A DNA stretch of 64,000 nucleotides from Escherichia coli (GTDB lineage: Bacteria > Pseudomonadota > Gammaproteobacteria > Enterobacterales > Enterobacteriaceae): assembly GCF_016026235.1 (NCBI RefSeq), contig NZ_CP065613.1; one strand, 5' to 3'. The notes under the pieces are model-generated. The model was not told the DNA's origin and ran no database searches. It saw nothing but the letters and a program-made list of their open reading frames with translations. The translations under genes and the position numbers were made by a program. The stretch's first letter is position 1. Each line of letters starts with the position of its first letter. Shown here piece by piece: positions 2,757 to 59,732 of the stretch.

Positions 2757-3287
2757 TCAGGCTCTGGATGACTTTCGTTTTTTCTCCAGCTCCTGGCGCT
2801 TTTTTTCCAGGAGATGCTCCTGCATGGCTTTCAGATATGCATTTTCTGCGCGAAGATAACGCAGCTCATTCTTCATCTCTTCCGGCGTCATGTTTCCCTC
2901 GTTTTCATGGGTATCATCAGAACGGGTCATGCTTTTCTCCTTCCTGCGCCTGATAAAGGCCTCATTACCAGATTTGCGGTAGCCTTTTATCCAGTTTTTA
3001 ACCATGTTGTGGCTGGGAATGTTAAACCGGGCGGCTACCCGGGGTAGAGACTCAGAATGCCCGAGAGCATAAAGAACCACGCAAAGTTTATCTTCAGGAG
3101 AATAGCTACGCTTGTGTCTGCAATCCAGTGCCTGAGGACCGTGAAGAAGAAAAAGATTAATCCAGTGTGAGAGGCTGGTGTGAGAAAGTTGAAAGAGTTT
3201 TGCCGTAGAAATGATGCCTGCATGACCGGCCAGGTAATGATTTACAGCGGCAAGTTTTACTTCAAATGAATGTTTCATAAACTGCAC
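2757..3287 (-). CDS. IS3-family transposase OrfA (HTH/leucine-zipper part)
   Basis: 176 aa ORF, basic and coiled-coil C-terminus typical of IS150-group OrfA; immediately upstream of the DDE ORF. Confidence 0.7.
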   Translation of the reverse strand: MQFMKHSFEVKLAAVNHYLAGHAGIISTAKLFQLSHTSLSHWINLFLLHGPQALDCRHKRSYSPEDKLCVVLYALGHSESLPRVAARFNIPSHNMVKNWIKGYRKSGNEAFIRRRKEKSMTRSDDTHENEGNMTPEEMKNELRYLRAENAYLKAMQEHLLEKKRQELEKKRKSSRA

Positions 3288-3356
3288 CTTCAGATGTCAG
3301 ATTATGTCCAACATTTGGGGTGCAGTTCATTAAGCGTCGCATCCGGCGAAAGTCAA

Positions 3357-3617
3357 TCAGGACTCGCTCACCACCACCGTACCGATTTCCGGGTGGCTAA
3401 AGCTGGTAATTTTATCCAGACGTAGCTCACGGGTTTCGCCAGCGGCCTCGACGACCAGATACTCCACATTTTTGCGGGAGACTAAATCGCTGGCTTTTGC
3501 CTGCAATTTTTCGCCATCTTTCAGCTCAAGTGTCAGCATTAAATGATGCTGGCAGGCGAGCTCAAGATTATCGTAATCATCACAATTGATTGGTTGATAC
3601 GTATCATTCATTGACAT
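3357..3617 (-). CDS. rof: Rho-binding antiterminator Rof
   Basis: 86 aa ORF recognised as Rof; conserved position next to yaeP. Confidence 0.8.
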
Positions 3618-3804
3618 AATCGCTCACCAGTAAGTTTGCCGCAGCGTATGCTGCTTTTTCCCTGACAGCCTCAGAAAGGGCGTCGTCGGCAGCCATTTCA
3701 TTCAGCACTTTCAAAACGCAGCCCAGCGCGTCCGGAACGTATCCTAAGTCTCCGCTGGCGATTTCCGCGTACCGCTTGCGTATTAACTCACAATATTTTT
3801 CCAC
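3604..3804 (-). CDS. yaeP: small protein YaeP
   Basis: ORF 3604..3822 overlapping rof start; likely internal start giving ~66 aa. Confidence 0.6.
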
Positions 3805-3969
3805 ATGCCCTCCTGTCAGCACTCTGACTTAACCGTGGATGCAAGTCTAAGCCTACGAAGATAAACTCTGTTTCGCAAGGTGACTATACCACACTCATTT
3901 CTGCAATATCAGCGCCGCAACTGCACGTATTCCGTTACAATGGCCTCCTGATTCGAAAGGAGTTTTCTT

Positions 3970-51615: not shown

Positions 51616-52405
51616 TAATACTAGTGGGACTTCACAACCCGAGTCGCAAGTATGTGTAGTACCGCAAAAAATTACAAATAAATTTAAAATAATGATGAGT
51701 AAGGCTTGTAAAGCACAGAAAATGGTTTTATTGAAAAGAGCAGATGATATTATGTCATGGGAGGGGGAACAACAACGAGATTTTATTAAAGTTTTTGGCC
51801 TTAAAGGCGAGGACATTATAAAAATCAGAAAGGTTGGGGAAGATACTGGGAAACGAATGCAAGCGAGACTATTCATAATGGATGGCATCAGACGAATAAT
51901 GACGATTGCAAATGGTTTGACGATCGAAAGCTATAAAGATTATACGAACTGCAATGAATTTGCTGCTTTTATTAGTCCACATCTTGATCCTCCTTACATT
52001 GTAAATATCGGAGCGCATTTTGAATACAGACATGGTATAAAACAGTCGGTTACAGGTAGAGACTCTCATGTAAGTACACTTTGCCATGAAATGTCCCATA
52101 TATTTTGGTATTGGGGTGACAATCAAAAAGGTGGTATGTGGACTCAGGATTATACGGGTATTAATAAGTTCGCAACAAGTAATAAGGATGAAGTTAGCTA
52201 TGAGAAACATGTTTCAGTGGCTAATGATCTGGTTACATTGCGTAAAGATCAGTTATTTGAGAATGCATATAATGTTGAAAGATATTTTTATATAAAATTA
52301 AATGATGAAGATATTGAAGCTCAAGATGAGAATATGTTAGCAAAAAAAGTAGAGGATAAAATAAAAGAGATAGAAAAATGTTTTGATGAGTTGATGGGGA
52401 AATAA
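51602..52405 (+). CDS. VgrG-coupled HExxH protein, candidate zinc-metallopeptidase effector
   Basis: ATG 51602 overlaps the vgrG stop by 14 nt; 267 aa; HExxH in hydrophobic context (TLCHEMSHIFWYW) followed by WTQDYTG; low-GC cassette. Confidence 0.55.
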   Translation: MAGNNNTSGTSQPESQVCVVPQKITNKFKIMMSKACKAQKMVLLKRADDIMSWEGEQQRDFIKVFGLKGEDIIKIRKVGEDTGKRMQARLFIMDGIRRIMTIANGLTIESYKDYTNCNEFAAFISPHLDPPYIVNIGAHFEYRHGIKQSVTGRDSHVSTLCHEMSHIFWYWGDNQKGGMWTQDYTGINKFATSNKDEVSYEKHVSVANDLVTLRKDQLFENAYNVERYFYIKLNDEDIEAQDENMLAKKVEDKIKEIEKCFDELMGK

Positions 52406-52468
52406 GATGAAGAGGTTGGCTTTCTATAATCTAAATTATGTTGTACTGATGGTTTTTTTCTTTGTTTT

Positions 52469-53155
52469 TTGCCATTATCTATTGCAATTGCAATAGATAA
52501 TGAGAATCTTTTTGTAAAAAAATACAGATTCGGTTTTGAACGAAGAAGTGACAATGGGAAACCAATTATTTATCTTAGCCATAATTTAGCGCCAGAGGAA
52601 AATATAAGTAATGAATTAACAAATGATGTTGTTGTTAAATTGGTGGTTAAGCCACATGCTGAAAATATTTTAGCTACTATAACTTTTTATAACAGTAGTA
52701 CTAAATCGTATTTTCTCCCCAGAATATATTATCCAAAGAACTTCCAAAAAGGAAATGGAGATGTATTTGATGCTTTGTGTGATGACGAATTCTTGATTAC
52801 ATCAGGAAATATTAGCTTAGACTATCTAGGAGGCTTTTGTCCCTTTGAGCTTGATTTGAATTTGAGCCGATGGGTGGAAATTACGGCAGGTAAAAAAATA
52901 TCTTTTGATGTAAAATTGAATGATATGCATTCATTTCTCCCCAGTTTAAATAATTATCATATAAAAACATTAAACTACAAACTTGTTAGGAGAAAATGGT
53001 TTGTATTAAAATCAATTAATGAAACATTCCTCTCTATTTTGATGAAAAGATACTCATGTAATGAATATGATTTTAGAGCTATATCATTTAGTGGAGAGGG
53101 ATGTGATAATTATGAATTTGATAAAAATACGTTTTTTTTGTTAATCAAATATTAG
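52469..53155 (+). CDS. hypothetical protein, candidate cognate immunity/partner of the HExxH protein
   Basis: 228 aa ORF (TTG start in ORF track) directly downstream in a very AT-rich cassette; an upstream ATG at 52407 encodes a hydrophobic leader in a different frame. Confidence 0.4.
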   Translation: MPLSIAIAIDNENLFVKKYRFGFERRSDNGKPIIYLSHNLAPEENISNELTNDVVVKLVVKPHAENILATITFYNSSTKSYFLPRIYYPKNFQKGNGDVFDALCDDEFLITSGNISLDYLGGFCPFELDLNLSRWVEITAGKKISFDVKLNDMHSFLPSLNNYHIKTLNYKLVRRKWFVLKSINETFLSILMKRYSCNEYDFRAISFSGEGCDNYEFDKNTFFLLIKY

Positions 53156-53329
53156 ATAAAGATGATGAGCAACATTCTGTTCATATTAGGTCTAATGAAT
53201 TTTCCATCAATATCGATGGAAGCTTGGTAAAGCAACCTTATTGATTAAAATGTATCGCAGGTTTTATTTTCTGTAATGCTGGTGCATGTGCGTAAATATT
53301 TCTTAAGAGCCGGAAACACCTCTTCCGCC

Positions 53330-53732
53330 TTTATCGACGATAAACCTACCGCCAGAACCGGTGATGCCATTGACTGCGGTGGCGTGGTTAAAGGTGGCGG
53401 GCGATGTGGTGCTGGAGAGCAGCAGCCGGATAAGCCTGAAGGTGGGCGGTTCGTTTGTGGTCATCCATTCAGGGGGCGTGGACATCGTCGGGCCGAAAAT
53501 CAATCTCAATAGCGGCGGTAGTCCGGGAACGCCGGTGCCGACGCTGCAACCGGCGGTTCTGAAAGCGCTGGCAGATGATAAAAGTTTAGCGGCTGAGCAA
53601 AATGATAGTAATGCATCGTCCGATCAGAATGATAACAACGATGAGGGTGAGGAAGCGCCAGAAAAATCGGTGTGTAAGGAGTGCCTGAAAAGGGCGCAAG
53701 AAGCCGCCGCCGTTTTTGCGCCTCGTGGATAA
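53330..53732 (+). pseudogene. orphan vgrG 3' remnant
   Basis: 53394..53576 is a diverged repeat of vgrG 51109..51281 (...LESSSRISLKVGGSF(V/I)VI..GGVDI.GPKINLN.GGS.GTPV...) with a different C-terminal tail; no N-terminal vgrG body. Confidence 0.75.
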
Positions 53733-53738
53733 GGGAGA

Positions 53739-54509
53739 ATGACAATGATAACAGTATCGCCACACGCTACCGATCAAGACAAATATATTATCTGGCTGAA
53801 GCAAGCTGAATCATTCTGTTCTGCCGCTGGTTTGGATTACATAGATGTGCTTGTTGACCAGGCTGGAACCGACCAACCTTTGCAAAATGATATGCTTCAT
53901 CTGTGGCCAGCCATTCACTGGTATGCCCTGTTTGAAGGAACGCCTGAAGCTGAGACGATGGAGTATTCCCCTGTAGTGTTACGCCTGTACTTTGCGCTCA
54001 GTAGCCATCGCAAATTTCTGGCACAACTGATGGCGTCATTTGCTGATACGCCGCGTCTTACTTTGTTGATATCCCCTCTTACATTCGACCTGCTGGGGCG
54101 GCATCTTCAGGTATTGTCACAGGTTCAGTGGGAAGAACAGACCGGATTGCTGCGTTACTATGATAATCGGGTGTTCCCTTTACTGTTCACACATGTTTTG
54201 ACTAACGAGCAGCAGGCGACATTTACTGATATTGCGTTGTTCTGGAGCTGGTTAGACCGTGATGGTGAGATTAACTGGAAATCAGGAAGTTTTTCACCAG
54301 AACGCAGGCTTACTGACAACCCGGAGATGAATCGGGTGGATGATGTACAGGTGGGATTGATGGGCTGTATCTGCGACGCTGAAGTCCTGATGAAGGAGAA
54401 AGCAGTCAGTGAACTCAGTCAGGAAAGCTATTTTGCCCACTGTCTTGATATTGCTTTCAGAGCCAATGACGCGAAATATTTCGGAGCTTTGCGGGACTTC
54501 GAAGGATAA
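53739..54509 (+). CDS. putative T6SS effector adaptor (DUF4123/Tap-like by position and size)
   Basis: 256 aa ORF immediately after the vgrG remnant and upstream of the effector module; family assignment not verified. Confidence 0.4.
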   Translation: MTMITVSPHATDQDKYIIWLKQAESFCSAAGLDYIDVLVDQAGTDQPLQNDMLHLWPAIHWYALFEGTPEAETMEYSPVVLRLYFALSSHRKFLAQLMASFADTPRLTLLISPLTFDLLGRHLQVLSQVQWEEQTGLLRYYDNRVFPLLFTHVLTNEQQATFTDIALFWSWLDRDGEINWKSGSFSPERRLTDNPEMNRVDDVQVGLMGCICDAEVLMKEKAVSELSQESYFAHCLDIAFRANDAKYFGALRDFEG

Positions 54510-54822
54510 TATTGTGGTGATGTACGGGGAGATTTATCTGTTTAAAAGTCCGTAGCTGTTAATATCAAGAGATAATCGTGAAATAAACGGAAAATCAAGC
54601 TCGACATGTAATGGTAGTATCCATCATGTTGCATTTGTGTTCGATCGTAATGTCAGTTCACTTGGCTGCAATATATTTTGCGTAATATCATCAATGCTCT
54701 GTCGATATTCCAATGTGTGACAATCGAAAGATATGCATTTTATTTGCTTCTTTGTCAAAACTTTATTGTCGTAGAAACAATACCCATCAATTAAAATCTC
54801 TCAAAGTAAAAGAACCAGCAAC

Positions 54823-55377
54823 ATGTCCAGCAAAATAAGGAAAAGTATCAGTATGAGAGCGATTTTCAAATGTTATTCTCTAATGATTTTATTTGCAGTA
54901 TCAGGCTGTTCAATGGCAAAAAATAGCGGTGATTACACTGCTGTGGATATTAATGGGATAAATCATACGGATAAGGATATAAATTATATACACATCAATG
55001 GTTACGGCGGACCAAATATTGGCCCATTCGGAGACGGTGGAAGATATTGTTGCGTTATGCTGCCAGATAAGTGGCATTCTGGATTAAAAGCCCGAGTTGA
55101 GTGGGAGGTTGATCCAAATACAGCTCCTCTGCCTCCAGGCTATAAGGACAGGGAGAAATTTGAAGCATGGAAGAAAGTTGCGCTAAACAGTTTTAGAAAA
55201 TATTCAACAATTGTTGATATCCCGGAATATGATGCTGAGCTTTGTGGCCTGACCGTTCATTTTCTAACGTGTAATCAGATAAAAGTGACAACCGTCTGCC
55301 AGAAATATGGTACACCAAATTATCCTATCAAAGAACCCCGCGAGATGAAGGAACCAGCAACATGTCCAGCAAAATAA
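54823..55377 (+). CDS. lipoprotein, candidate Tle-family immunity protein (paralog 1)
   Basis: 184 aa with lipobox (FAVSGC); about 60% identical to the next ORF; conserved C-terminus ...IKEPREMKEPATCPAK. Confidence 0.6.
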   Translation: MSSKIRKSISMRAIFKCYSLMILFAVSGCSMAKNSGDYTAVDINGINHTDKDINYIHINGYGGPNIGPFGDGGRYCCVMLPDKWHSGLKARVEWEVDPNTAPLPPGYKDREKFEAWKKVALNSFRKYSTIVDIPEYDAELCGLTVHFLTCNQIKVTTVCQKYGTPNYPIKEPREMKEPATCPAK

Positions 55378-55904
55378 GAAATGGAATGAATATAACAAAA
55401 GTAGTTAAAGGCTGTCTGGTATTAATTTTGATGGTGATTTCGGGTTGCTCAGCAGCTAATTACGACGATTATACTGCAGGTGATCTCCGGGCAATAAATC
55501 ATATTAAAGGTATCAGTATTAATTGGTTCACCGTAAATGGTTATCGGGTCCATGGTTTGGGCGGTGGATATTGCTGCATAATGTTACCAGAGAAGTGGCA
55601 TTCTGGATTAAAAGCCCGGATCGAGTGGGAAGTAGACCCGAACCCCCTTGAACCTATTGCAATGAAAAAAGAAGGTTTTGGCTATGAAGAAGATGCTTAT
55701 GCTAAACATGCTGCAAATTATCAAAAATATAAAGTAATTGTTGATATCCCGGAATACGGCGCTGAACGTTGTGGCCTGACCGTTCATTTTCTGCCGTGTA
55801 ATCAGATTAAAGTGACAACCGTCTGCGAGGGCTATGGCACACCGAATTATCCTATCAAAGAACCCCGCGAGATGAAGGAACCTGCAACATGTCCAGCAAA
55901 ATAA
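55362..55904 (+). CDS. lipoprotein, candidate Tle-family immunity protein (paralog 2)
   Basis: 180 aa with lipobox (MVISGC); start overlaps stop of paralog 1 within the repeated motif ACATGTCCAGCAAAATAAG. Confidence 0.6.
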   Translation: MSSKIRNGMNITKVVKGCLVLILMVISGCSAANYDDYTAGDLRAINHIKGISINWFTVNGYRVHGLGGGYCCIMLPEKWHSGLKARIEWEVDPNPLEPIAMKKEGFGYEEDAYAKHAANYQKYKVIVDIPEYGAERCGLTVHFLPCNQIKVTTVCEGYGTPNYPIKEPREMKEPATCPAK

Positions 55905-57982
55905 GTGGTCTGGCTTTTCCGTGTTATGCCCCCCCGGTGTTCCCTGAAGATGGGCGATTAATATTATCTGAAGTGCAGGTAAACGCGAACTACCTAAAAC
56001 AAATCAATAAAACAGAGGAGCACAAAACCAACTGTAGTAAACAGGCTGGATTTAGAATTGGCTTTACGTGTAATCAAAGTCTGCATATTAGTCTGTTTTT
56101 TGATGGTACAAATAATAATGAATATAATGACACAAAAGTCTCTCATCCAACCAATATTGCGAAATTATTCCACACAAGTATCGAAGACCGTAATGCTGGG
56201 TATTTTTCCTATTACATACCTGGTGTAGGCACACCATTTCCCAAGATAGGTGAAATGGATTACAGCAACAGCGGACTGGAATTTGCCACCGGTGGTGAAG
56301 ACAGGATTAATTGGGCATTATTACGCCTCGTGGATGCTCTTAGCTATGCTATTGACCCTACCCAAAATGGGCTGAATGAGAAGGTGGCAAAAGAGCACAT
56401 TCCTGTCATGCGAGCTCACTGGCCGATGACTGGTGAAGTGAATCGTCGCAATGTGATTAACCCCTACCTGGAAAAATTACAGGGGCAGTTAGAACAAGCC
56501 AGTCCGCGCCTGCTAAACGTAAAGCTATTTATCTACGGATTTTCCCGTGGCGCAGCGGAAGCGCGAACCTTTGTTAACTGGTTGACTCAGTTAGCTTGCC
56601 CGCAGAGGCAACAGGTGATGCTGGCCGGTTTAGCTGTCAGTATTGAGTTTTTGGGGCTGCTGGATACCGTAGCTTCTGTGGGGGCGGCGCATGTTTTGCC
56701 GGGCGCTGCCGGTCATATGGGATGGGCCGATAGTACTCAGCAACTCCCTGATGAGCGGCACTTTCCCGGCCTGATTAAATGCTGTCGTCACTTCGTTGCC
56801 GCGCATGAGCAGCGGCTGTGCTTCCCGCTGGATTCAATCCGTCGTCCTGAAGGCAATTATCCTTTATATGCAGAGGAAGTGATCTATCCGGGGATGCACT
56901 CTGATGTCGGTGGTGGCTATCCCGTTTGCGATCAGGGGAAGTCCTGTGGAGGTCCAGATGAAATTCTCTCTCAAATTGCTCTGCATGATATGTATCTTGC
57001 GGCGTTTGATGAGGGCTCTCCATTATCAGTGCATCCTTTATTCATAACCAAAATGATAAAAGATATTTCACCATCAAGAGCTATGTCTGATTCATCAATT
57101 GCTGAATTTGTCATCGCTCCAATGTTGATTAAACGCTTCAACATCTGGCGTCAAGCGCTGCTGAACACCACCTTGCAGGGTACAGAAGAAATGATTGATA
57201 CGAGGGAAGGTTATCACTCCTATCAACTTGCCCAGGTTCTTGAAAGCGCAATTAGCGATCAGATCGGCTGGATCACCGCCTGGCGTATCGGTCGCTATGC
57301 GAATAACAGCCTTCTTGTGCAACCTTTTTATATTAAGGCGCCACAGCTGGATAAAGATGGACTTGATAAAGAGGCTAAAGCGCGTAAAGAACAAATGGAA
57401 AATATTGAAAAAGAACAGGCGAACAAGCAGAAAGGGAATGGCACACTTGATGAAAGTAATCAGGGCATTCCTATCCTTGACCCAACCAATGCTCAGTATC
57501 AGTTGCGAGAGGCAGCCCGAGAATTTCAGAGCGATTATAAAGGATGGACGCGCGATATTAACGGCAGCGTCATGGAGAAAGCCATTCAGATTCTTGTGGA
57601 TGTCATTCCTAAATATCCGGTGTATCTGATTAATGGCGATGATGAAGCAAAAGAATATCAGCAAATTAAGGCTATGGGAGACGGACTCTATCCACAATTT
57701 TTTATTGATTCACTGGGAACGGGAACGCGTACTCAGCCATGCGCTGAATTACTGGCTCTCTATGATGACCAGGTTCACGACTCCCGCGCCTGGTTTATGC
57801 AAAGTTCGCTGGGTGGACGCGAACCCTGGGGCGGTTATTTTCGCTACCGCATGATTTACTTCGGTGATGAGGCTAATAAAGAGCTGAAGCTAATCTCTGC
57901 AGATGGCAAAGTTGTTGGCGATCAGCCCACATCCAACCGGGTCATTTATTGGATGGAATCGAAAACGGTGAGCCGAGGTTAA
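55889..57982 (+). CDS. DUF2235-type alpha/beta-hydrolase, Tle1-family phospholipase effector candidate
   Basis: 697 aa; N-terminal FFDGTNNN motif and GxSxG lipase motif (GFSRG); start overlaps stop of lipoprotein paralog 2 by the same junction motif. Confidence 0.7.
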   Translation: MSSKISGLAFPCYAPPVFPEDGRLILSEVQVNANYLKQINKTEEHKTNCSKQAGFRIGFTCNQSLHISLFFDGTNNNEYNDTKVSHPTNIAKLFHTSIEDRNAGYFSYYIPGVGTPFPKIGEMDYSNSGLEFATGGEDRINWALLRLVDALSYAIDPTQNGLNEKVAKEHIPVMRAHWPMTGEVNRRNVINPYLEKLQGQLEQASPRLLNVKLFIYGFSRGAAEARTFVNWLTQLACPQRQQVMLAGLAVSIEFLGLLDTVASVGAAHVLPGAAGHMGWADSTQQLPDERHFPGLIKCCRHFVAAHEQRLCFPLDSIRRPEGNYPLYAEEVIYPGMHSDVGGGYPVCDQGKSCGGPDEILSQIALHDMYLAAFDEGSPLSVHPLFITKMIKDISPSRAMSDSSIAEFVIAPMLIKRFNIWRQALLNTTLQGTEEMIDTREGYHSYQLAQVLESAISDQIGWITAWRIGRYANNSLLVQPFYIKAPQLDKDGLDKEAKARKEQMENIEKEQANKQKGNGTLDESNQGIPILDPTNAQYQLREAAREFQSDYKGWTRDINGSVMEKAIQILVDVIPKYPVYLINGDDEAKEYQQIKAMGDGLYPQFFIDSLGTGTRTQPCAELLALYDDQVHDSRAWFMQSSLGGREPWGGYFRYRMIYFGDEANKELKLISADGKVVGDQPTSNRVIYWMESKTVSRG

Positions 57983-58238
57983 GTTCATAAGATTGAGGGG
58001 TTGGTGACCGGGAAAATGTAGACATGTAGTGCCTAATCACCCCAGTTCAAACCCATCCGCATCCCGCCATGCCGGAAACTTCACACTGTACTCCCAGGGA
58101 AAAATCACGTAATGCTGCTTTTTTTGTACTAAATAATTCGCATTTTATGTTCAATAATTGAGGTGTTCCTTATTACCTAAAGCTGTTTTTCATTGCTTAT
58201 ACATGATCAAATACTCATTGCATAATTAAGGGGGCAAA

Positions 58239-59065
58239 ATGGAACTTAAAAAATTGATGGAACATATTTCTATTATCCCCGATTACAGGCAAGCCTGGAA
58301 AGTGGAACATAAATTGCAGATATTCTATCTGTTAACTATTTGCGCCGTTATTTCTGGTGCATAATGCTGGGAAGATATAGAGGATTTGGGGAAACACAAC
58401 CCGATTTTTTGAAGTGATATGGTGATTTTGAAAATGGTATTCCTGTTCACGATATCATTGCCAGAGTTGTATCCTGTATCAGTCCTGAAAAATTTCATGA
58501 GTGCTTTATTAACTGGATGCGTGACTGTCATTCTTCAGATGATAAAGACGTCATTACAATTGATGGAAAAACGCTCCGGCACTCTTATGATAAAAGTCGT
58601 CACAAGGGAGCAATTTATGTCATTAAAATCCGTCTTCATATTGTTTGCATGTCTCTGATGAATTTATTGATTTTACGTTTGAATGGAAAGGGCTGAAGAA
58701 ATTATGCATGGCAGTCTCATTTCGCTCAATAATAGCAGAACAAAAGAAAAATCCCGAAATGACGGTCAGATATTATAGCATTTCTGCTGATTTAACCGCA
58801 GAGAAGTTCGCCACAGCGAACCGAAATCACTGGCAAGTGGAGAATAAATTGCACTGGCATCTGGACGTGGTAATGAATAAAGACGACTTTATAATAAGAA
58901 GATGAAATGCAACAGAATTATTTTCAGGGATACGGAACATCGCTATTAATATTTCAAAGAAAGATAAGATACTCAAGGCCGGGGCAAGATGTAAGATGTG
59001 AAAGCAGCTGCGGACAGAGACTACCTCGCGTCAGTCCTTTCGGGGGCGGGCTTTCGTAATCTTGC
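58239..59065 (+). pseudogene. yafF: H-repeat-associated (ISAs1-family) transposase remnant, yafF-like, multiply frameshifted
   Basis: [26 protein letters not shown]... then stops and frame changes; fragments in ORFs 58419..58658 and 58645..58905 and a C-terminal tail near 58920..59060. Confidence 0.6.
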
Positions 59066-59228
59066 TCTGCAAGGGATGATAAAAAGTGCAACTTTATTCC
59101 ACGCAGCTATTTAGACAGCGTACAGTAAACAAACGAAAGTTGTTATTTCAATGGTCAGGGCAAGAGCATGAAGTGTTTACTACACACTATGCTCTTGTAC
59201 TGGAGTCAGGTCTTGTTTGGAGGGATAA

Positions 59229-59732
59229 ATGGTAGATATTGTCGAGGCCGATAAAACGGATATTTATTTCATTCAGGAGAGTGTTTATGGCAAAATCGGG
59301 TTGCCAGCTTTTGGTAATACAATAGGACCATCCGCACAGCAAGTTGTTAAAAAGGTATTCGCTGTCGTTAAAGAACGAGATAAGACACATGCAAAACAGA
59401 GATTATTGTTGGAATATAATGGTAACAAACTCTGGATGAATGCTATTGATGGCAGTGAAGCTATCCTACCAACAGAATTTTCTAAGCGATACGAACTTTC
59501 ATTATTCAATACTACTAATTTTGGAGAAGATCCTTTTCCTGATGTTAATTTATATAATAATATGAAATCAAGTTTTTTTGTAAGGTTTGGTGGAACATCC
59601 CATCCCGAGGCTTGGGCTATTTATAATGCAAGTACGAAAGAGGTTAAATATATAGAAACTGCAAGAGAAATTGATAAAATATTCAGTGATTTTAACTTGA
59701 GTGGTACATTGCCAATTCACATTGGTCAATGA
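59229..59732 (+). CDS. hypothetical protein
   Basis: 167 aa ORF in low-GC DNA; no recognisable motif. Confidence 0.35.
   Translation: MVDIVEADKTDIYFIQESVYGKIGLPAFGNTIGPSAQQVVKKVFAVVKERDKTHAKQRLLLEYNGNKLWMNAIDGSEAILPTEFSKRYELSLFNTTNFGEDPFPDVNLYNNMKSSFFVRFGGTSHPEAWAIYNASTKEVKYIETAREIDKIFSDFNLSGTLPIHIGQ

What the first reader, a model, noticed from the sequence alone, without database searches (positions are those of the whole stretch)
54807..55905. Tandem paralogous lipoprotein genes joined to a Tle1-like gene by a repeated start/stop-overlap motif
The motif GAACC(A/T)GCAACATGTCCAGCAAAATAAG occurs three times (54812..54839, 55351..55378, 55878..55905). In one frame it encodes the conserved C-terminus ...KEPATCPAK-stop; in another it encodes the start MSSKI(R/S) of the next gene. 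So lipoprotein 1, lipoprotein 2 and the DUF2235 protein all begin with MSSKI and overlap their upstream neighbour identically. The first copy, upstream of lipoprotein 1, looks like the tail of a further lost copy. Such a module could drive expansion or contraction of an immunity array by homologous recombination and couple translation across it.
Basis: seen in the sequence. Interest (0 to 1): 0.75.

Follow-up and report, generated by a model that had tools for sequence, protein, structure and literature searches.

The report
Shared junction in toxin-immunity gene array
A 28-base motif repeated three times is the junction of a known E. coli type VI secretion toxin-immunity array: it encodes the tail of each immunity lipoprotein and the ribosome site and start codon of the next gene, and strains gain or lose immunity copies exactly there.

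Summary
The 28-nt motif occurs at 54812, 55351 and 55878, with none expected by chance.

The locus is a known kind of E. coli T6SS cargo module: a vgrG fragment, tla1 (DUF4123 adaptor), two Tli1a-family DUF3304 lipoproteins, and tle1 (DUF2235 phospholipase). RefSeq already names these genes. Tandem Tli1 arrays upstream of tle1 are published for Klebsiella and Pseudomonas.

Two things were added here.

1. Among 5,426 complete E. coli genomes, 69 carry the locus, with 0, 1, 2 or 3 immunity units (1, 11, 2 and 55 genomes). Several alleles differ by whole units with breakpoints inside the motif. One breakpoint lies in the conserved 182-nt 3' block.

2. The junction is conserved across the family. 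In 47 loci from Enterobacterales, Pseudomonas and Aquitalea, the Tli tail (M)KEPxxCP is written as AAGGAG-N7-8-ATG. The next gene's ATG lies 13 or 16 nt before the Tli stop. The codon before the tail Cys ends in A in 102 of 103 such junctions although its amino acid varies, against a background of about 13%.

Translational coupling is inferred and was not tested. The origin of the head copy from a lost unit is unresolved. Overall this is a well-supported but modestly novel detail of a known system.

The parts
53361..53732 (+). 3' fragment of a vgrG gene (pseudogene), the remnant of the spike gene that originally headed this effector module
   Evidence: The ORF translation matches the VgrG C-terminal region of the upstream full vgrG. 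RefSeq annotates the same stretch as 'VgrG, incomplete, missing N-terminus' in L001 and L003-L006. In L002 an intact tssI sits directly upstream of tla1.
53739..54509 (+). tla1, the DUF4123 adaptor/chaperone for Tle1
   Evidence: NCBIfam NF053803 Tla1 scores 218.3 bits against a cut-off of 200. RefSeq names it 'toxin Tle1 chaperone Tla1'.
54510..54811 (.). AT-rich spacer (33.8% GC) between tla1 and the array, conserved in all E. coli alleles examined
   Evidence: The alignment shows the spacer conserved across alleles, and one search gives its GC content. Promoter-like sites are not above the shuffle expectation. Salmonella (L086) and L091 have no equivalent; there the first tli abuts the tla1 stop.
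54809..54839 (+). Junction motif, copy 1 (head of the array): a weak SD-like AAAGAA, then ATG at 54823, then TAA in the -1 frame
   Evidence: locate it. It is present at the head of the array in every E. coli allele, and is diverged in the L002/L082 type, which reads ATGCCCGTCGAAATAAAG.
54823..55377 (+). tli1 copy 1: a DUF3304 / Tli1a-family lipoprotein with lipobox VSGC, Cys at 54907-54909, and an alternative start at 54853
   Evidence: NCBIfam Tli1a_fam scores 207.7 bits (cut-off 110). Pfam DUF3304 E=1.8e-28.
55197..55378 (+). Conserved 3' block of unit 1, 90% identical to 55724-55905 in unit 2, including synonymous sites
   Evidence: the repeat finder family D1. The codon-level profile shows 11-13 of 13-14 codons identical in the 3' block. 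The middle of the gene shows 0 of 8 identical codons for identical amino acids.
55348..55378 (+). Junction motif, copy 2: the tail of Tli copy 1 (KEPATCPAK-stop) plus SD AAGGAA plus ATG at 55362
55362..55904 (+). tli1 copy 2: a DUF3304 / Tli1a-family lipoprotein with lipobox ISGC, Cys at 55446-55448, and an alternative start at 55386
   Evidence: NCBIfam Tli1a_fam scores 201.8 bits. RefSeq annotates the 543-nt form, starting at the motif ATG, in L001, L002, L005 and L006.
55875..55905 (+). Junction motif, copy 3: the tail of Tli copy 2 plus SD plus the ATG of tle1 at 55889
55889..57982 (+). tle1: a T6SS phospholipase effector (DUF2235 catalytic domain plus Tle1 C-terminal domain), with the GFSRG nucleophile motif at 56537-56551
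   Evidence: Pfam PF09994 and PF22137 match. PDB 4O5P (P. aeruginosa Tle1) matches at E=1.9e-116 with GFSRG aligned. 2,357 homologues have E<=1e-20.
55929..55935 (+). C7 homopolymer in tle1 codons 14-16 (GCC CCC CCG)
   Evidence: The sequence is. The tract is C6 (frameshift) in L003, L004, L005 and L085. Their near-identical counterparts L084, L006 and L007 have C7.

Best explanation
The motif is the junction element of a Tli1-Tle1 immunity-toxin array that belongs to the type VI secretion system next door.

The same nucleotides do two jobs. In one frame they encode the conserved C-terminal tail of a DUF3304 immunity lipoprotein (KEPATCPAK-stop). In the +1 frame they carry a Shine-Dalgarno sequence (AAGGAA/AAGGAG) and, 9 nt later, the ATG of the next gene. 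The Cys codon TGT, preceded by a codon ending in A, makes that ATG. Every gene that follows a tli, whether another tli or tle1, therefore starts inside the tail of its upstream neighbour, 13-16 nt before that neighbour's stop.

Shown here:
- This architecture is conserved across gamma- and beta-proteobacterial Tle1 loci.
- The ATG is maintained at the nucleotide level regardless of the amino acid encoded.
- In E. coli the repeated junction, and the conserved 182-nt 3' block next to it, are the places where alleles differ by whole immunity units (0 to 3 copies).
- The unit ends are homogenised while the unit middles are anciently diverged.

Inferred:
- Ribosomes finishing a tli reinitiate at, or are handed to, the overlapping start. 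Toxin synthesis would then be tied to immunity synthesis.
- Copy-number changes arise by unequal homologous recombination or replication slippage between the direct repeats.
- The lipoproteins neutralise Tle1 in the periplasm, as their characterised homologues do.
For: Identity of the parts:
- The lipoproteins match Tli1a_fam at 208 and 202 bits; tla1 matches Tla1 at 218 bits.
- The lipoproteins match Pfam DUF3304. The effector matches the Tle1 domains and PDB 4O5P.
- An adjacent T6SS core is present: TssM, ClpV, TssB/C, Hcp and VgrG.

Motif: three exact or near-exact copies, with none expected by chance.

Copy-number variation in E. coli:
- 69 of 5,426 complete genomes carry the locus.
- Places per genome for a unit-specific probe give 11 genomes with 1 copy, 2 with 2 copies and 55 with 3 copies. 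One further genome has 0 copies (L004).

Breakpoints in the motif:
- L005 and L006 read spacer-motif-unit 2-motif-tle1.
- L003 and L084 read spacer-motif-unit 1 type-motif-tle1.
- L004 reads spacer-motif-tle1, with the crossover confined to the last 22 nt of the motif.
- A crossover in the 3' block is seen in the chimeric unit of L082. Mosaic units occur in L007 and L008.

Concerted evolution: the 3' ~55 codons are near-identical, including synonymous sites. The middle has 0 of 8 identical codons for identical residues.

Family-wide conservation, from 73 loci found with a Tle1 profile:
- In 47 loci with an upstream tli, the last tli stop falls 0-21 nt after the expected tle1 ATG.
- The junction consensus is ATGAAGGAGCC-N5-ATGTCC-N3-6-stop.
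- The overlap is 13 nt in 35 loci and 16 nt in 11 loci.
- The codon before the tail Cys ends in A in 102 of 103 junctions followed by a gene, with 9 different amino acids. The A3 background in the adjacent tle1 ORFs is about 13%. Terminal Tli genes downstream of tle1 show A in 6 of 10 (Fisher p=1.6e-4).
- 44 of 68 internal junction ATGs are in frame with the next Tli ORF.
- In Hafnia (L026), the junction ATG is followed directly, in frame, by the Tli signal peptide. In P. helleri (L016) no internal ATG lies between the junction ATG and the lipobox Cys.

Function of homologues:
- Tli1KP protects against Tle1KP, and four tandem copies lie upstream of tle1KP (PMC5649205).
- P. aeruginosa Tli1a is an outer-membrane lipoprotein that binds Tle1, in the same gene order vgrG-tla1-tli1b-tli1a-tle1 (PMC13133936).
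Against: - No expression data were used, so coupling is inferred from conservation only.
- Local RNA folding shows no structure that would hide the SD and make initiation depend on upstream translation (z = +1.3, -0.6, +2.2).
- Both E. coli lipoproteins have an alternative in-frame ATG 24-30 nt downstream. Each gives a more typical 19-21-aa lipoprotein signal peptide, and PGAP sometimes picks it.
- The head copy has a weaker SD (AAAGAA).
- The Tli tail is conserved as protein even where no gene follows, so part of the motif's conservation is a protein-level constraint.
- 28-31 bp is near the lower limit for RecA-dependent recombination (own knowledge). Some allele differences could instead reflect horizontal replacement of the whole module.
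- Direction (gain or loss) cannot be inferred for most alleles.
- In P. aeruginosa, co-expressed Tli1a did not rescue E. coli from periplasmic Tle1 (PMC13133936).
Confidence: 0.75

Rival explanations
1. The motif is a passive by-product of tandem duplication. It is repeated only because the tli gene was duplicated together with its ends, and it has no selected role in translation or recombination.
For: The units are clear paralogues with a 527-539-nt period. Tandem Tli1 arrays are common: 30 of 47 loci have two or more upstream copies, and K. pneumoniae has four copies at 94% identity.
Against: The two window paralogues are saturated at synonymous sites in their middles, yet the motif is identical between them. 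The same SD-ATG-stop arrangement is kept from E. coli to Pseudomonas and Aquitalea. The ATG is preserved through many amino-acid replacements, in 102 of 103 junctions. It is also present at single-copy tli-tle1 junctions, where no duplication is involved (17 single-upstream-copy loci).
Confidence: 0.08
2. The constraint is at the protein level only. Selection acts on the Tli C-terminal tail (KEPxxCP, perhaps a disulphide or a Tle1 contact). The embedded ATG is incidental, and the lipoproteins start at their internal ATGs (54853, 55386).
For: The tail is part of the NCBIfam Tli1a model, which matches to within 2 residues of each C-terminus. It is retained in terminal Tli genes with nothing to couple to. 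The internal ATGs give canonical 19-21-aa lipoprotein signal peptides. PGAP uses them in L003, L007 and L008.
Against: The third base of the codon before Cys is A in 102 of 103 junctions followed by a gene, across V, S, T, I, Q, E, L, K and P codons. The background is about 13%, and terminal genes show A in only 6 of 10. In Hafnia (L026) the signal peptide follows the motif ATG directly, and in P. helleri (L016) no ATG lies between the motif ATG and the lipobox Cys. tle1 has no other ATG that yields its conserved N-terminus.
Confidence: 0.12
3. The array is a record of effector displacement. Each upstream tli would be an orphan immunity gene left behind when a new tli-tle1 module recombined in at the junction, as described for V. 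cholerae auxiliary clusters and for Rhs/CDI orphan arrays (own knowledge). The paralogues would then protect against different Tle1 alleles rather than being redundant.
For: In Pseudomonas, Pantoea and Cedecea arrays (L012, L015, L023, L031), each unit carries a tle1 5' fragment after the junction. The Tli middles are highly diverged and mosaic. E. coli Tle1 alleles differ by up to 10%, with variable segments.
Against: In E. coli the Tli type does not track the Tle1 allele. L003 and L006 have 99.6% identical Tle1 but different tle1-proximal Tli types. No tle1 fragments lie between the E. coli units; only 17 nt of tle1 5' sequence is shared.
Confidence: 0.2
4. The motif is a site for a dedicated site-specific recombinase, giving an integron-like cassette system.
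For: The breakpoints are precise, at a short conserved sequence that flanks each unit.
Against: No recombinase gene is associated with the module in E. coli, Salmonella or the other loci. The neighbouring IS elements vary and are unrelated. One copy-number change maps to the 182-nt homologous block instead of the motif (L082). The motif is fully explained by its coding and translation-initiation content.
Confidence: 0.02

Closest known systems
P. aeruginosa vgrG4a-tla1-tli1b-tli1a-tle1 island (PA3294-PA3290)
   Same: It has the same gene order and families: a DUF4123 adaptor, two tandem DUF3304 outer-membrane lipoproteins upstream of a DUF2235 Tle1, with one immunity copy often degenerate (PMC13133936). 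The window's Tle1 aligns to its crystal structure 4O5P at E=1.9e-116. NCBIfam models named after this system are met above their cut-offs.
   Different: The E. coli Tle1 is shorter (697 aa against 884). The E. coli array sits behind a 302-nt AT-rich spacer that carries an extra head copy of the junction. The paper does not describe the overlapping start/stop junction or copy-number variation.
K. pneumoniae HS11286 Tli1KP x4 - Tle1KP
   Same: It has a tandem array of immunity genes directly upstream of tle1. The immunity function has been demonstrated in competition assays (PMC5649205).
   Different: The Klebsiella copies are 94% identical at the nucleotide level, indicating recent duplication. 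The two window copies are anciently diverged except at their ends. The Klebsiella locus itself was not examined here.
EAEC Sci-1 Tle1-Tli1 (Flaugnatti et al. 2016)
   Same: It is an E. coli T6SS Tle1 phospholipase with an outer-membrane lipoprotein immunity protein and a second, truncated immunity gene.
   Different: Its Tli1 is a DUF2931 protein encoded downstream of tle1. Tle1 binds the VgrG C-terminus directly, without a DUF4123 adaptor. It is a different immunity family and layout from the window.
Translationally coupled overlapping genes, such as type II toxin-antitoxin operons and ATGA/TAATG overlaps (own knowledge)
   Same: The start codon and SD of the downstream gene lie within the end of the upstream gene. 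The protective partner is encoded first.
   Different: Here the overlap is 13-16 nt. It is co-encoded with a conserved peptide tail, is conserved across orders, and is iterated through an array. Coupling has not been measured.
Orphan immunity arrays (V. cholerae auxiliary clusters, Bacteroidales AID, Rhs/CDI orphans)
   Same: They contain several immunity genes next to one effector, with modular exchange at conserved boundaries (mentions AID arrays; the rest is own knowledge).
   Different: In E. coli the Tli type does not track the Tle1 allele. There are no effector fragments between units and no associated recombinase.

Membership tests
Tli1a-family (DUF3304) Tle1 immunity lipoprotein | The sequence matches the family model above its curated threshold | tested here: met
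   NCBIfam NF053804 scores 207.7 and 201.8 bits against a cut-off of 110. Pfam DUF3304 E=1.8e-28.
Tli1a-family (DUF3304) Tle1 immunity lipoprotein | A lipoprotein signal peptide with a lipobox Cys and an outer-membrane sorting residue | tested here: met
   Read directly from the ORFs...LFAVSG-C-SMA and ...LMVISG-C-SAA, with Ser at +2 (no Asp). No dedicated predictor was run.
Tli1a-family (DUF3304) Tle1 immunity lipoprotein | Encoded adjacent to a tle1 (DUF2235) gene | tested here: met
   Both copies lie immediately upstream of tle1 and overlap it or each other by 16 nt.
Tli1a-family (DUF3304) Tle1 immunity lipoprotein | Binds and neutralises the cognate Tle1 | not testable with these tools
   Only homologues have been tested: Tli1KP protects, and Tli1a of P. 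aeruginosa binds Tle1.
Tle1 T6SS phospholipase effector | A DUF2235 alpha/beta-hydrolase catalytic domain with the GxSxG nucleophile motif, plus the Tle1 C-terminal domain | tested here: met
   PF09994 matches in two stretches and PF22137 at E=1.7e-57. GFSRG at residues 217-221 aligns with the same motif in 4O5P. S219 and neighbouring residues are invariant in 22 homologues.
Tle1 T6SS phospholipase effector | Genetic linkage to vgrG, an adaptor and a T6SS | tested here: met
   A vgrG fragment and tla1 lie directly upstream. The T6SS core genes TssM, ClpV, TssB/C, Hcp and VgrG are in the same window.
Tle1 T6SS phospholipase effector | Phospholipase activity and T6SS-dependent delivery | not testable with these tools
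Tla1 (DUF4123) adaptor | The sequence matches the equivalog model above its cut-off | tested here: met
   NF053803 scores 218.3 bits against a cut-off of 200. The margin is small.
Translationally coupled gene pair | The downstream start codon and SD lie within or next to the end of the upstream ORF | tested here: met
   The overlap is 16 nt, with AAGGAA 9 nt upstream of the ATG. The arrangement is conserved in 47 loci.
Translationally coupled gene pair | Downstream translation depends on upstream translation | not testable with these tools
   This needs reporter fusions or ribosome profiling. Folding gives no evidence for an occluding structure.
Integron-like / site-specific cassette array | An associated recombinase and a structured recombination site | tested here: not met
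   There is no recombinase in the annotated neighbourhoods, no significant RNA/DNA structure, and no Rfam match.

The most novel reading that the evidence does not exclude
The SD-ATG embedded in the conserved Tli tail may be an ancient, selected dual-coding device found across Tle1 loci of Proteobacteria. On this reading it does two things at once. First, it makes translation of the phospholipase toxin, and of each further immunity gene, contingent on translation of the preceding immunity gene, so that toxin is never made without immunity. Second, it gives every unit an identical portable boundary, so that immunity genes can be added, lost or shuffled by homologous recombination without ever uncoupling the toxin from an immunity gene. 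A side consequence would be that many Tli precursors carry a Tle1-derived N-terminal leader.
Probability: 0.4. Interest if true: 0.5.

Novelty: new member of a known kind. Interest (0 to 1): 0.33.

Why it matters
Effector-immunity modules decide who wins contact-dependent bacterial competition, and how immunity repertoires expand is an active question. This locus shows a concrete and simple route. A short dual-coding junction, kept identical by selection on both a protein tail and a translation start, doubles as the crossover point. At that point E. coli strains gain, lose or reshuffle Tle1 immunity genes (0-3 copies in 69 genomes).

If the inferred coupling is real, it would also explain why this family places immunity genes before the toxin: toxin translation would depend on prior immunity translation. 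Both ideas are directly testable with one silent point mutation (ACA to ACC).

The practical value is modest. The analysis improves start-codon annotation, which is currently inconsistent in RefSeq for these genes. It also flags a homopolymer in tle1 that may switch the toxin off.

Tried and rejected
- Homology of the 302-nt spacer to a lost tli copy. HMM search of its three frames found only the tail itself. Smith-Waterman against the window's own units was at shuffle level. Against the first tli of Salmonella and L091 there was one collinear 39-nt match, z about 2.6-2.9, reached by 6-8 of 300 shuffles. A global alignment was not significant, with 24 of 100 shuffles reaching it. Verdict: inconclusive.
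- Promoter and terminator scan of 53300-58300. It found 13 promoter-like sites against 10.1 expected, which is not informative.
- RNA structure around each motif copy. No z-score was below -0.6, and the SD and AUG are largely unpaired. Structure-mediated coupling was dropped.
- Rfam scan of 53000-58500 at E<=1 gave no match.
- Orphan-immunity-by-displacement as the origin of the E. coli paralogues. The Tli type does not follow the Tle1 allele. It is kept only as a minor rival.
- Search for a solved DUF3304 structure by sequence returned only chance-level hits.
- Literature searches for a description of the junction, coupling or copy-number variation in Tli1 arrays found none in the held library. 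Subscription papers, such as Russell et al. 2013 and Flaugnatti et al. 2016, could not be read.
- Structure prediction and fold search were not used, because the families were already resolved by sequence.

Full report
**1. The observation**

The 28-nt pattern GAACCWGCAACATGTCCAGCAAAATAAG occurs exactly three times in the 64-kb window. The copies are at 54812, 55351 and 55878, all on the + strand, and 100 shuffles gave none. The repeat finder extends it to 31 nt, with spacings of 539 and 527 nt.

The sequence and ORF list confirm the two readings. In one frame, copies 2 and 3 end the ORFs 54823-55377 and 55362-55904 with ...KEPATCPAK-stop. In the +1 frame, all three copies read ATG TCC AGC AAA ATA (MSSKI). 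That frame runs without a stop into lipoprotein 1, lipoprotein 2 and a 697-aa protein (55889-57982). Each overlap is 16 nt.

The one qualification is that both lipoproteins have a second in-frame ATG (54853, 55386). RefSeq annotators choose that ATG in some genomes and the motif ATG in others.

**2. What the genes are**

- The two lipoproteins exceed the curated threshold of NCBIfam 'Tli1a family immunity protein' (208 and 202 bits, cut-off 110). They contain Pfam DUF3304. Their lipoboxes are VSG-C and ISG-C, with Ser at +2.
- The upstream gene 53739-54509 is the DUF4123 adaptor Tla1 (218 bits, cut-off 200).
- The downstream protein has the Tle1 catalytic (DUF2235) and C-terminal domains. It aligns to the P. 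aeruginosa Tle1 crystal structure 4O5P at E=1.9e-116, with the GFSRG nucleophile motif in register.
- A vgrG 3' fragment (53361-53732) precedes tla1.
- A complete T6SS core lies upstream in the window: TssM, ClpV, TssB/C, Hcp and VgrG.

The window is E. coli. Strain FDAARGOS_943 is 99.9-100% identical over this region, apart from IS1 and IS600 insertions.

The arrangement vgrG-tla1-tli1-tli1-tle1 is the one published for P. aeruginosa PA3294-PA3290 (PMC13133936). Tandem Tli1 arrays upstream of tle1 are published for K. pneumoniae, with four copies and immunity shown experimentally (PMC5649205). The system is therefore of a known kind, and RefSeq already names its genes.

**3. Copy-number variation in E. 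coli**

Megablast of 54400-56300 against 5,426 complete E. coli genomes found the locus in 69. A probe for the conserved 3' part of a unit gave 180 places in 68 genomes. Combined with the fetched loci, this resolves to 11 genomes with one unit, 2 with two units and 55 with three units. One further genome has none (L004). The window's two-unit state is the rare one.

Reading the junctions in thirteen fetched E. coli loci (L001-L008, L082-L085 and L090) shows that alleles differ by whole units, with the breakpoints inside the motif:

- L005, L006 and L083: spacer-motif-unit 2-motif-tle1.
- L003 and L084: spacer-motif-(unit 1 type)-motif-tle1.
- L004: spacer-motif-tle1. The upstream flank and the A at motif position 6 are of the head type, and tle1 sequence follows directly, so the crossover lies within the last 22 nt.
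- L082: the surviving unit is a chimera (unit 1 body with unit 2 3' end), so that event occurred in the 182-nt conserved block rather than in the motif.
- L007 and L008: the units are mosaics of the two types.

In L004, the genome with no immunity gene, tle1 is frameshifted.

**4. Old paralogues with young ends**

A codon alignment of the two window units shows about 40% amino-acid identity in the middle. There, 0 of 8 codons are identical among conserved residues, which indicates saturation. In the last 55 codons, 11-13 of 13-14 codons are identical, and the motif is identical. This is the signature of gene conversion, or of nucleotide-level constraint, at the unit boundaries. It is not the signature of a recent duplication.

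**5. The junction is conserved across the family**

A Tle1 profile was used to scan one genome per species, and it returned 73 loci. An iterated Tli HMM found 1-6 DUF3304 ORFs per locus.

- In 47 loci with a tli upstream of tle1, the last tli stop lies 0-21 nt after the expected tle1 ATG. Taxa include Rahnella, Superficieibacter, Hafnia, Enterobacter, Photorhabdus, Morganella, Providencia, Cedecea, Pantoea, many Pseudomonas, and Aquitalea.
- The junctions read ...ATG AAG GAG CCn nnn nnA TGT CCn nnn stop. This is the tail (M)KEPxxCPx written so that AAGGAG is a Shine-Dalgarno sequence and 'A TG' forms the next gene's ATG.
- The ATG-to-stop overlap is 13 nt in 35 loci and 16 nt in 11 loci.
- The residue before the Cys varies (V, S, T, I, Q, E, L, K, P), yet its codon ends in A in 102 of 103 junctions that are followed by tle1 or another upstream tli. 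The single exception gives GTG.
- In the adjacent tle1 ORFs, A-ending codons for these amino acids make up about 13%.
- In Tli genes that end an array downstream of tle1, only 6 of 10 keep the A (Fisher p=1.6e-4).

The start codon is thus maintained by selection on the nucleotide, on top of selection on the peptide tail.

- 44 of 68 internal junction ATGs are in frame with the next Tli ORF.
- In Hafnia (L026) the signal peptide follows this ATG directly. In P. helleri (L016) no ATG lies between this ATG and the lipobox Cys. In P. saxonica (L048) and P. weihenstephanensis (L056) the signal peptide follows in frame, but a second ATG four codons downstream is also available.
- In Rahnella (L009) and P. 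helleri (L016), the Tli precursor begins with 16-19 residues copied from the Tle1 N-terminus.
- In L012, L015 and L023 each unit carries a longer tle1 5' fragment; in L031 the shared tle1 5' stretch is about ten codons.

**6. The head copy**

Every E. coli allele has the motif at the head of the array, behind a conserved 302-nt spacer of 34% GC. The MSSKI half of the motif is natively the conserved Tle1 N-terminus, and the KEPATCP half is natively a Tli tail. A complete motif must therefore derive from a tli|tle1-type junction, so the head copy was either left by a lost upstream unit or copied in by conversion.

In Salmonella (L086) and a related metagenomic contig (L091), the first tli abuts the tla1 stop and there is no spacer. 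In L091 that first unit is a pseudogene. This fits the lost-copy idea.

Direct evidence is weak, however:

- There is one collinear 39-nt local match to those first units, with z about 2.6-2.9.
- There is nothing against the window's own units.
- The global alignment is non-significant.

I leave the origin open. One other locus (P. weihenstephanensis, L056) also has a head copy; most do not.

**7. Mechanism**

Shown:
- the dual coding;
- its conservation;
- its use as a breakpoint;
- homogenised unit ends.

Inferred:
- Translation of each downstream gene is coupled to termination of the upstream tli, 13-16 nt past the start. This would tie toxin synthesis to immunity synthesis.
- Unit gain and loss arises by unequal recombination or slippage between the 28-31-nt repeats and the 182-nt blocks.

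Local folding gives no support for structure-dependent coupling, and Rfam finds nothing. If coupling exists, it would work by reinitiation or ribosome proximity. No expression data were available.

**8. Rivals**

- *Passive by-product of duplication.* This is contradicted by sections 4 and 5.
- *Protein-only constraint.* This explains the tail but not the A-ending codon.
- *Orphan immunity by effector displacement.* This fits arrays with tle1 fragments in other genera. It does not fit E. coli, where L003 and L006 have 99.6% identical Tle1 but different Tli types.
- *Site-specific cassette system.* This has no recombinase and is contradicted by L082.

**9. Novelty**

The genes, their order and tandem immunity arrays are known. 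I found no paper in the held library that describes the overlapping junction, its conservation or copy-number variation at it. Key subscription papers could not be read.

I rate the finding as a new member of a known kind, carrying an undescribed but unsurprising detail. Interest is about 0.33.

Noticed in passing
window 55929-55935 (tle1 codons 14-16); L003, L004, L005, L085 versus L084, L006, L007: There is a C7 homopolymer just inside tle1. It is C6, which frameshifts from the motif ATG, in four E. coli genomes. Their otherwise near-identical counterparts have C7, so the change arose at least three to four times, or it is long-read homopolymer error. PGAP then calls tle1 from a GTG next to the tract. 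The only genome with zero immunity units (L004) is C6. This could be an on/off switch for the toxin.
   Followed up: partly
window 49216-53732: A full vgrG (49216-51615) is followed by an M35-type metallopeptidase (HEMSH motif, about 51602-52405; RefSeq: 'M35 family metalloendopeptidase'). A 228-aa ORF (52469-53155) with no family match comes next. Then comes the orphan vgrG 3' fragment that heads the tla1-tli-tle1 module. In L002 an intact tssI sits directly before tla1 instead. It looks as if a second vgrG-effector module recombined into the original vgrG.
   Followed up: partly
L009 5453-5600; L016 4297-4430, 4854, 5411: In Rahnella bruchi and Pseudomonas helleri, the Tli precursors, read from the junction ATG, begin with 16-19 residues nearly identical to the N-terminus of their Tle1 (for example MSKISLALPAWAPPLF...). 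They then run into the lipoprotein signal peptide. In L016 there is no other ATG before the lipobox. These are unusually long, toxin-derived signal-peptide leaders.
   Followed up: partly
L012, L015, L023 (Pseudomonas, Pantoea): The array period is 670-1370 nt rather than about 530 nt. Each unit carries a 5' fragment of tle1 (50 codons or more), some with stops, between the junction and the next tli. This is reminiscent of orphan toxin fragments in Rhs/CDI arrays.
   Followed up: no
L001 (NZ_CP065615.1, FDAARGOS_943) 715-1871 and 3248-3945: This is the closest complete genome to the window, 99.9-100% identical over the module. It differs by an IS1A insertion that splits lipoprotein 1 and an IS600 insertion between the vgrG fragment and tla1. 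The window represents the uninterrupted state of this rare two-unit allele.
   Followed up: yes
L083 (NZ_JALDNN010000001.1): A spacer-motif-unit 2-motif-tle1 module sits in a different chromosomal context, after htpX and an S1C protease gene, with no tla1 or vgrG in the fetched flank. Here tle1 is split by IS903B.
   Followed up: no
window 58241-59100, 59229-59732, 60025-61266: Downstream of tle1 lie a degenerate ISAs1-family (H-repeat) transposase gene and a conserved 167-aa hypothetical protein (WP_000227712 in relatives, no NCBIfam match). An intact IS4-family transposase (360 bits) follows, before the core genes of the yafV/ivy/fadE type.
   Followed up: partly
L029, L030, L034-L042, L045, L046, L063, L067 (Pseudomonas): Many Pseudomonas loci have DUF3304 genes on both sides of tle1: one upstream with the overlapping junction and one to four downstream. 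Several downstream terminal copies have lost the ATG in the tail (ACG, TCG, TCT, GCC or GTC before Cys) or have extended tails.
   Followed up: partly
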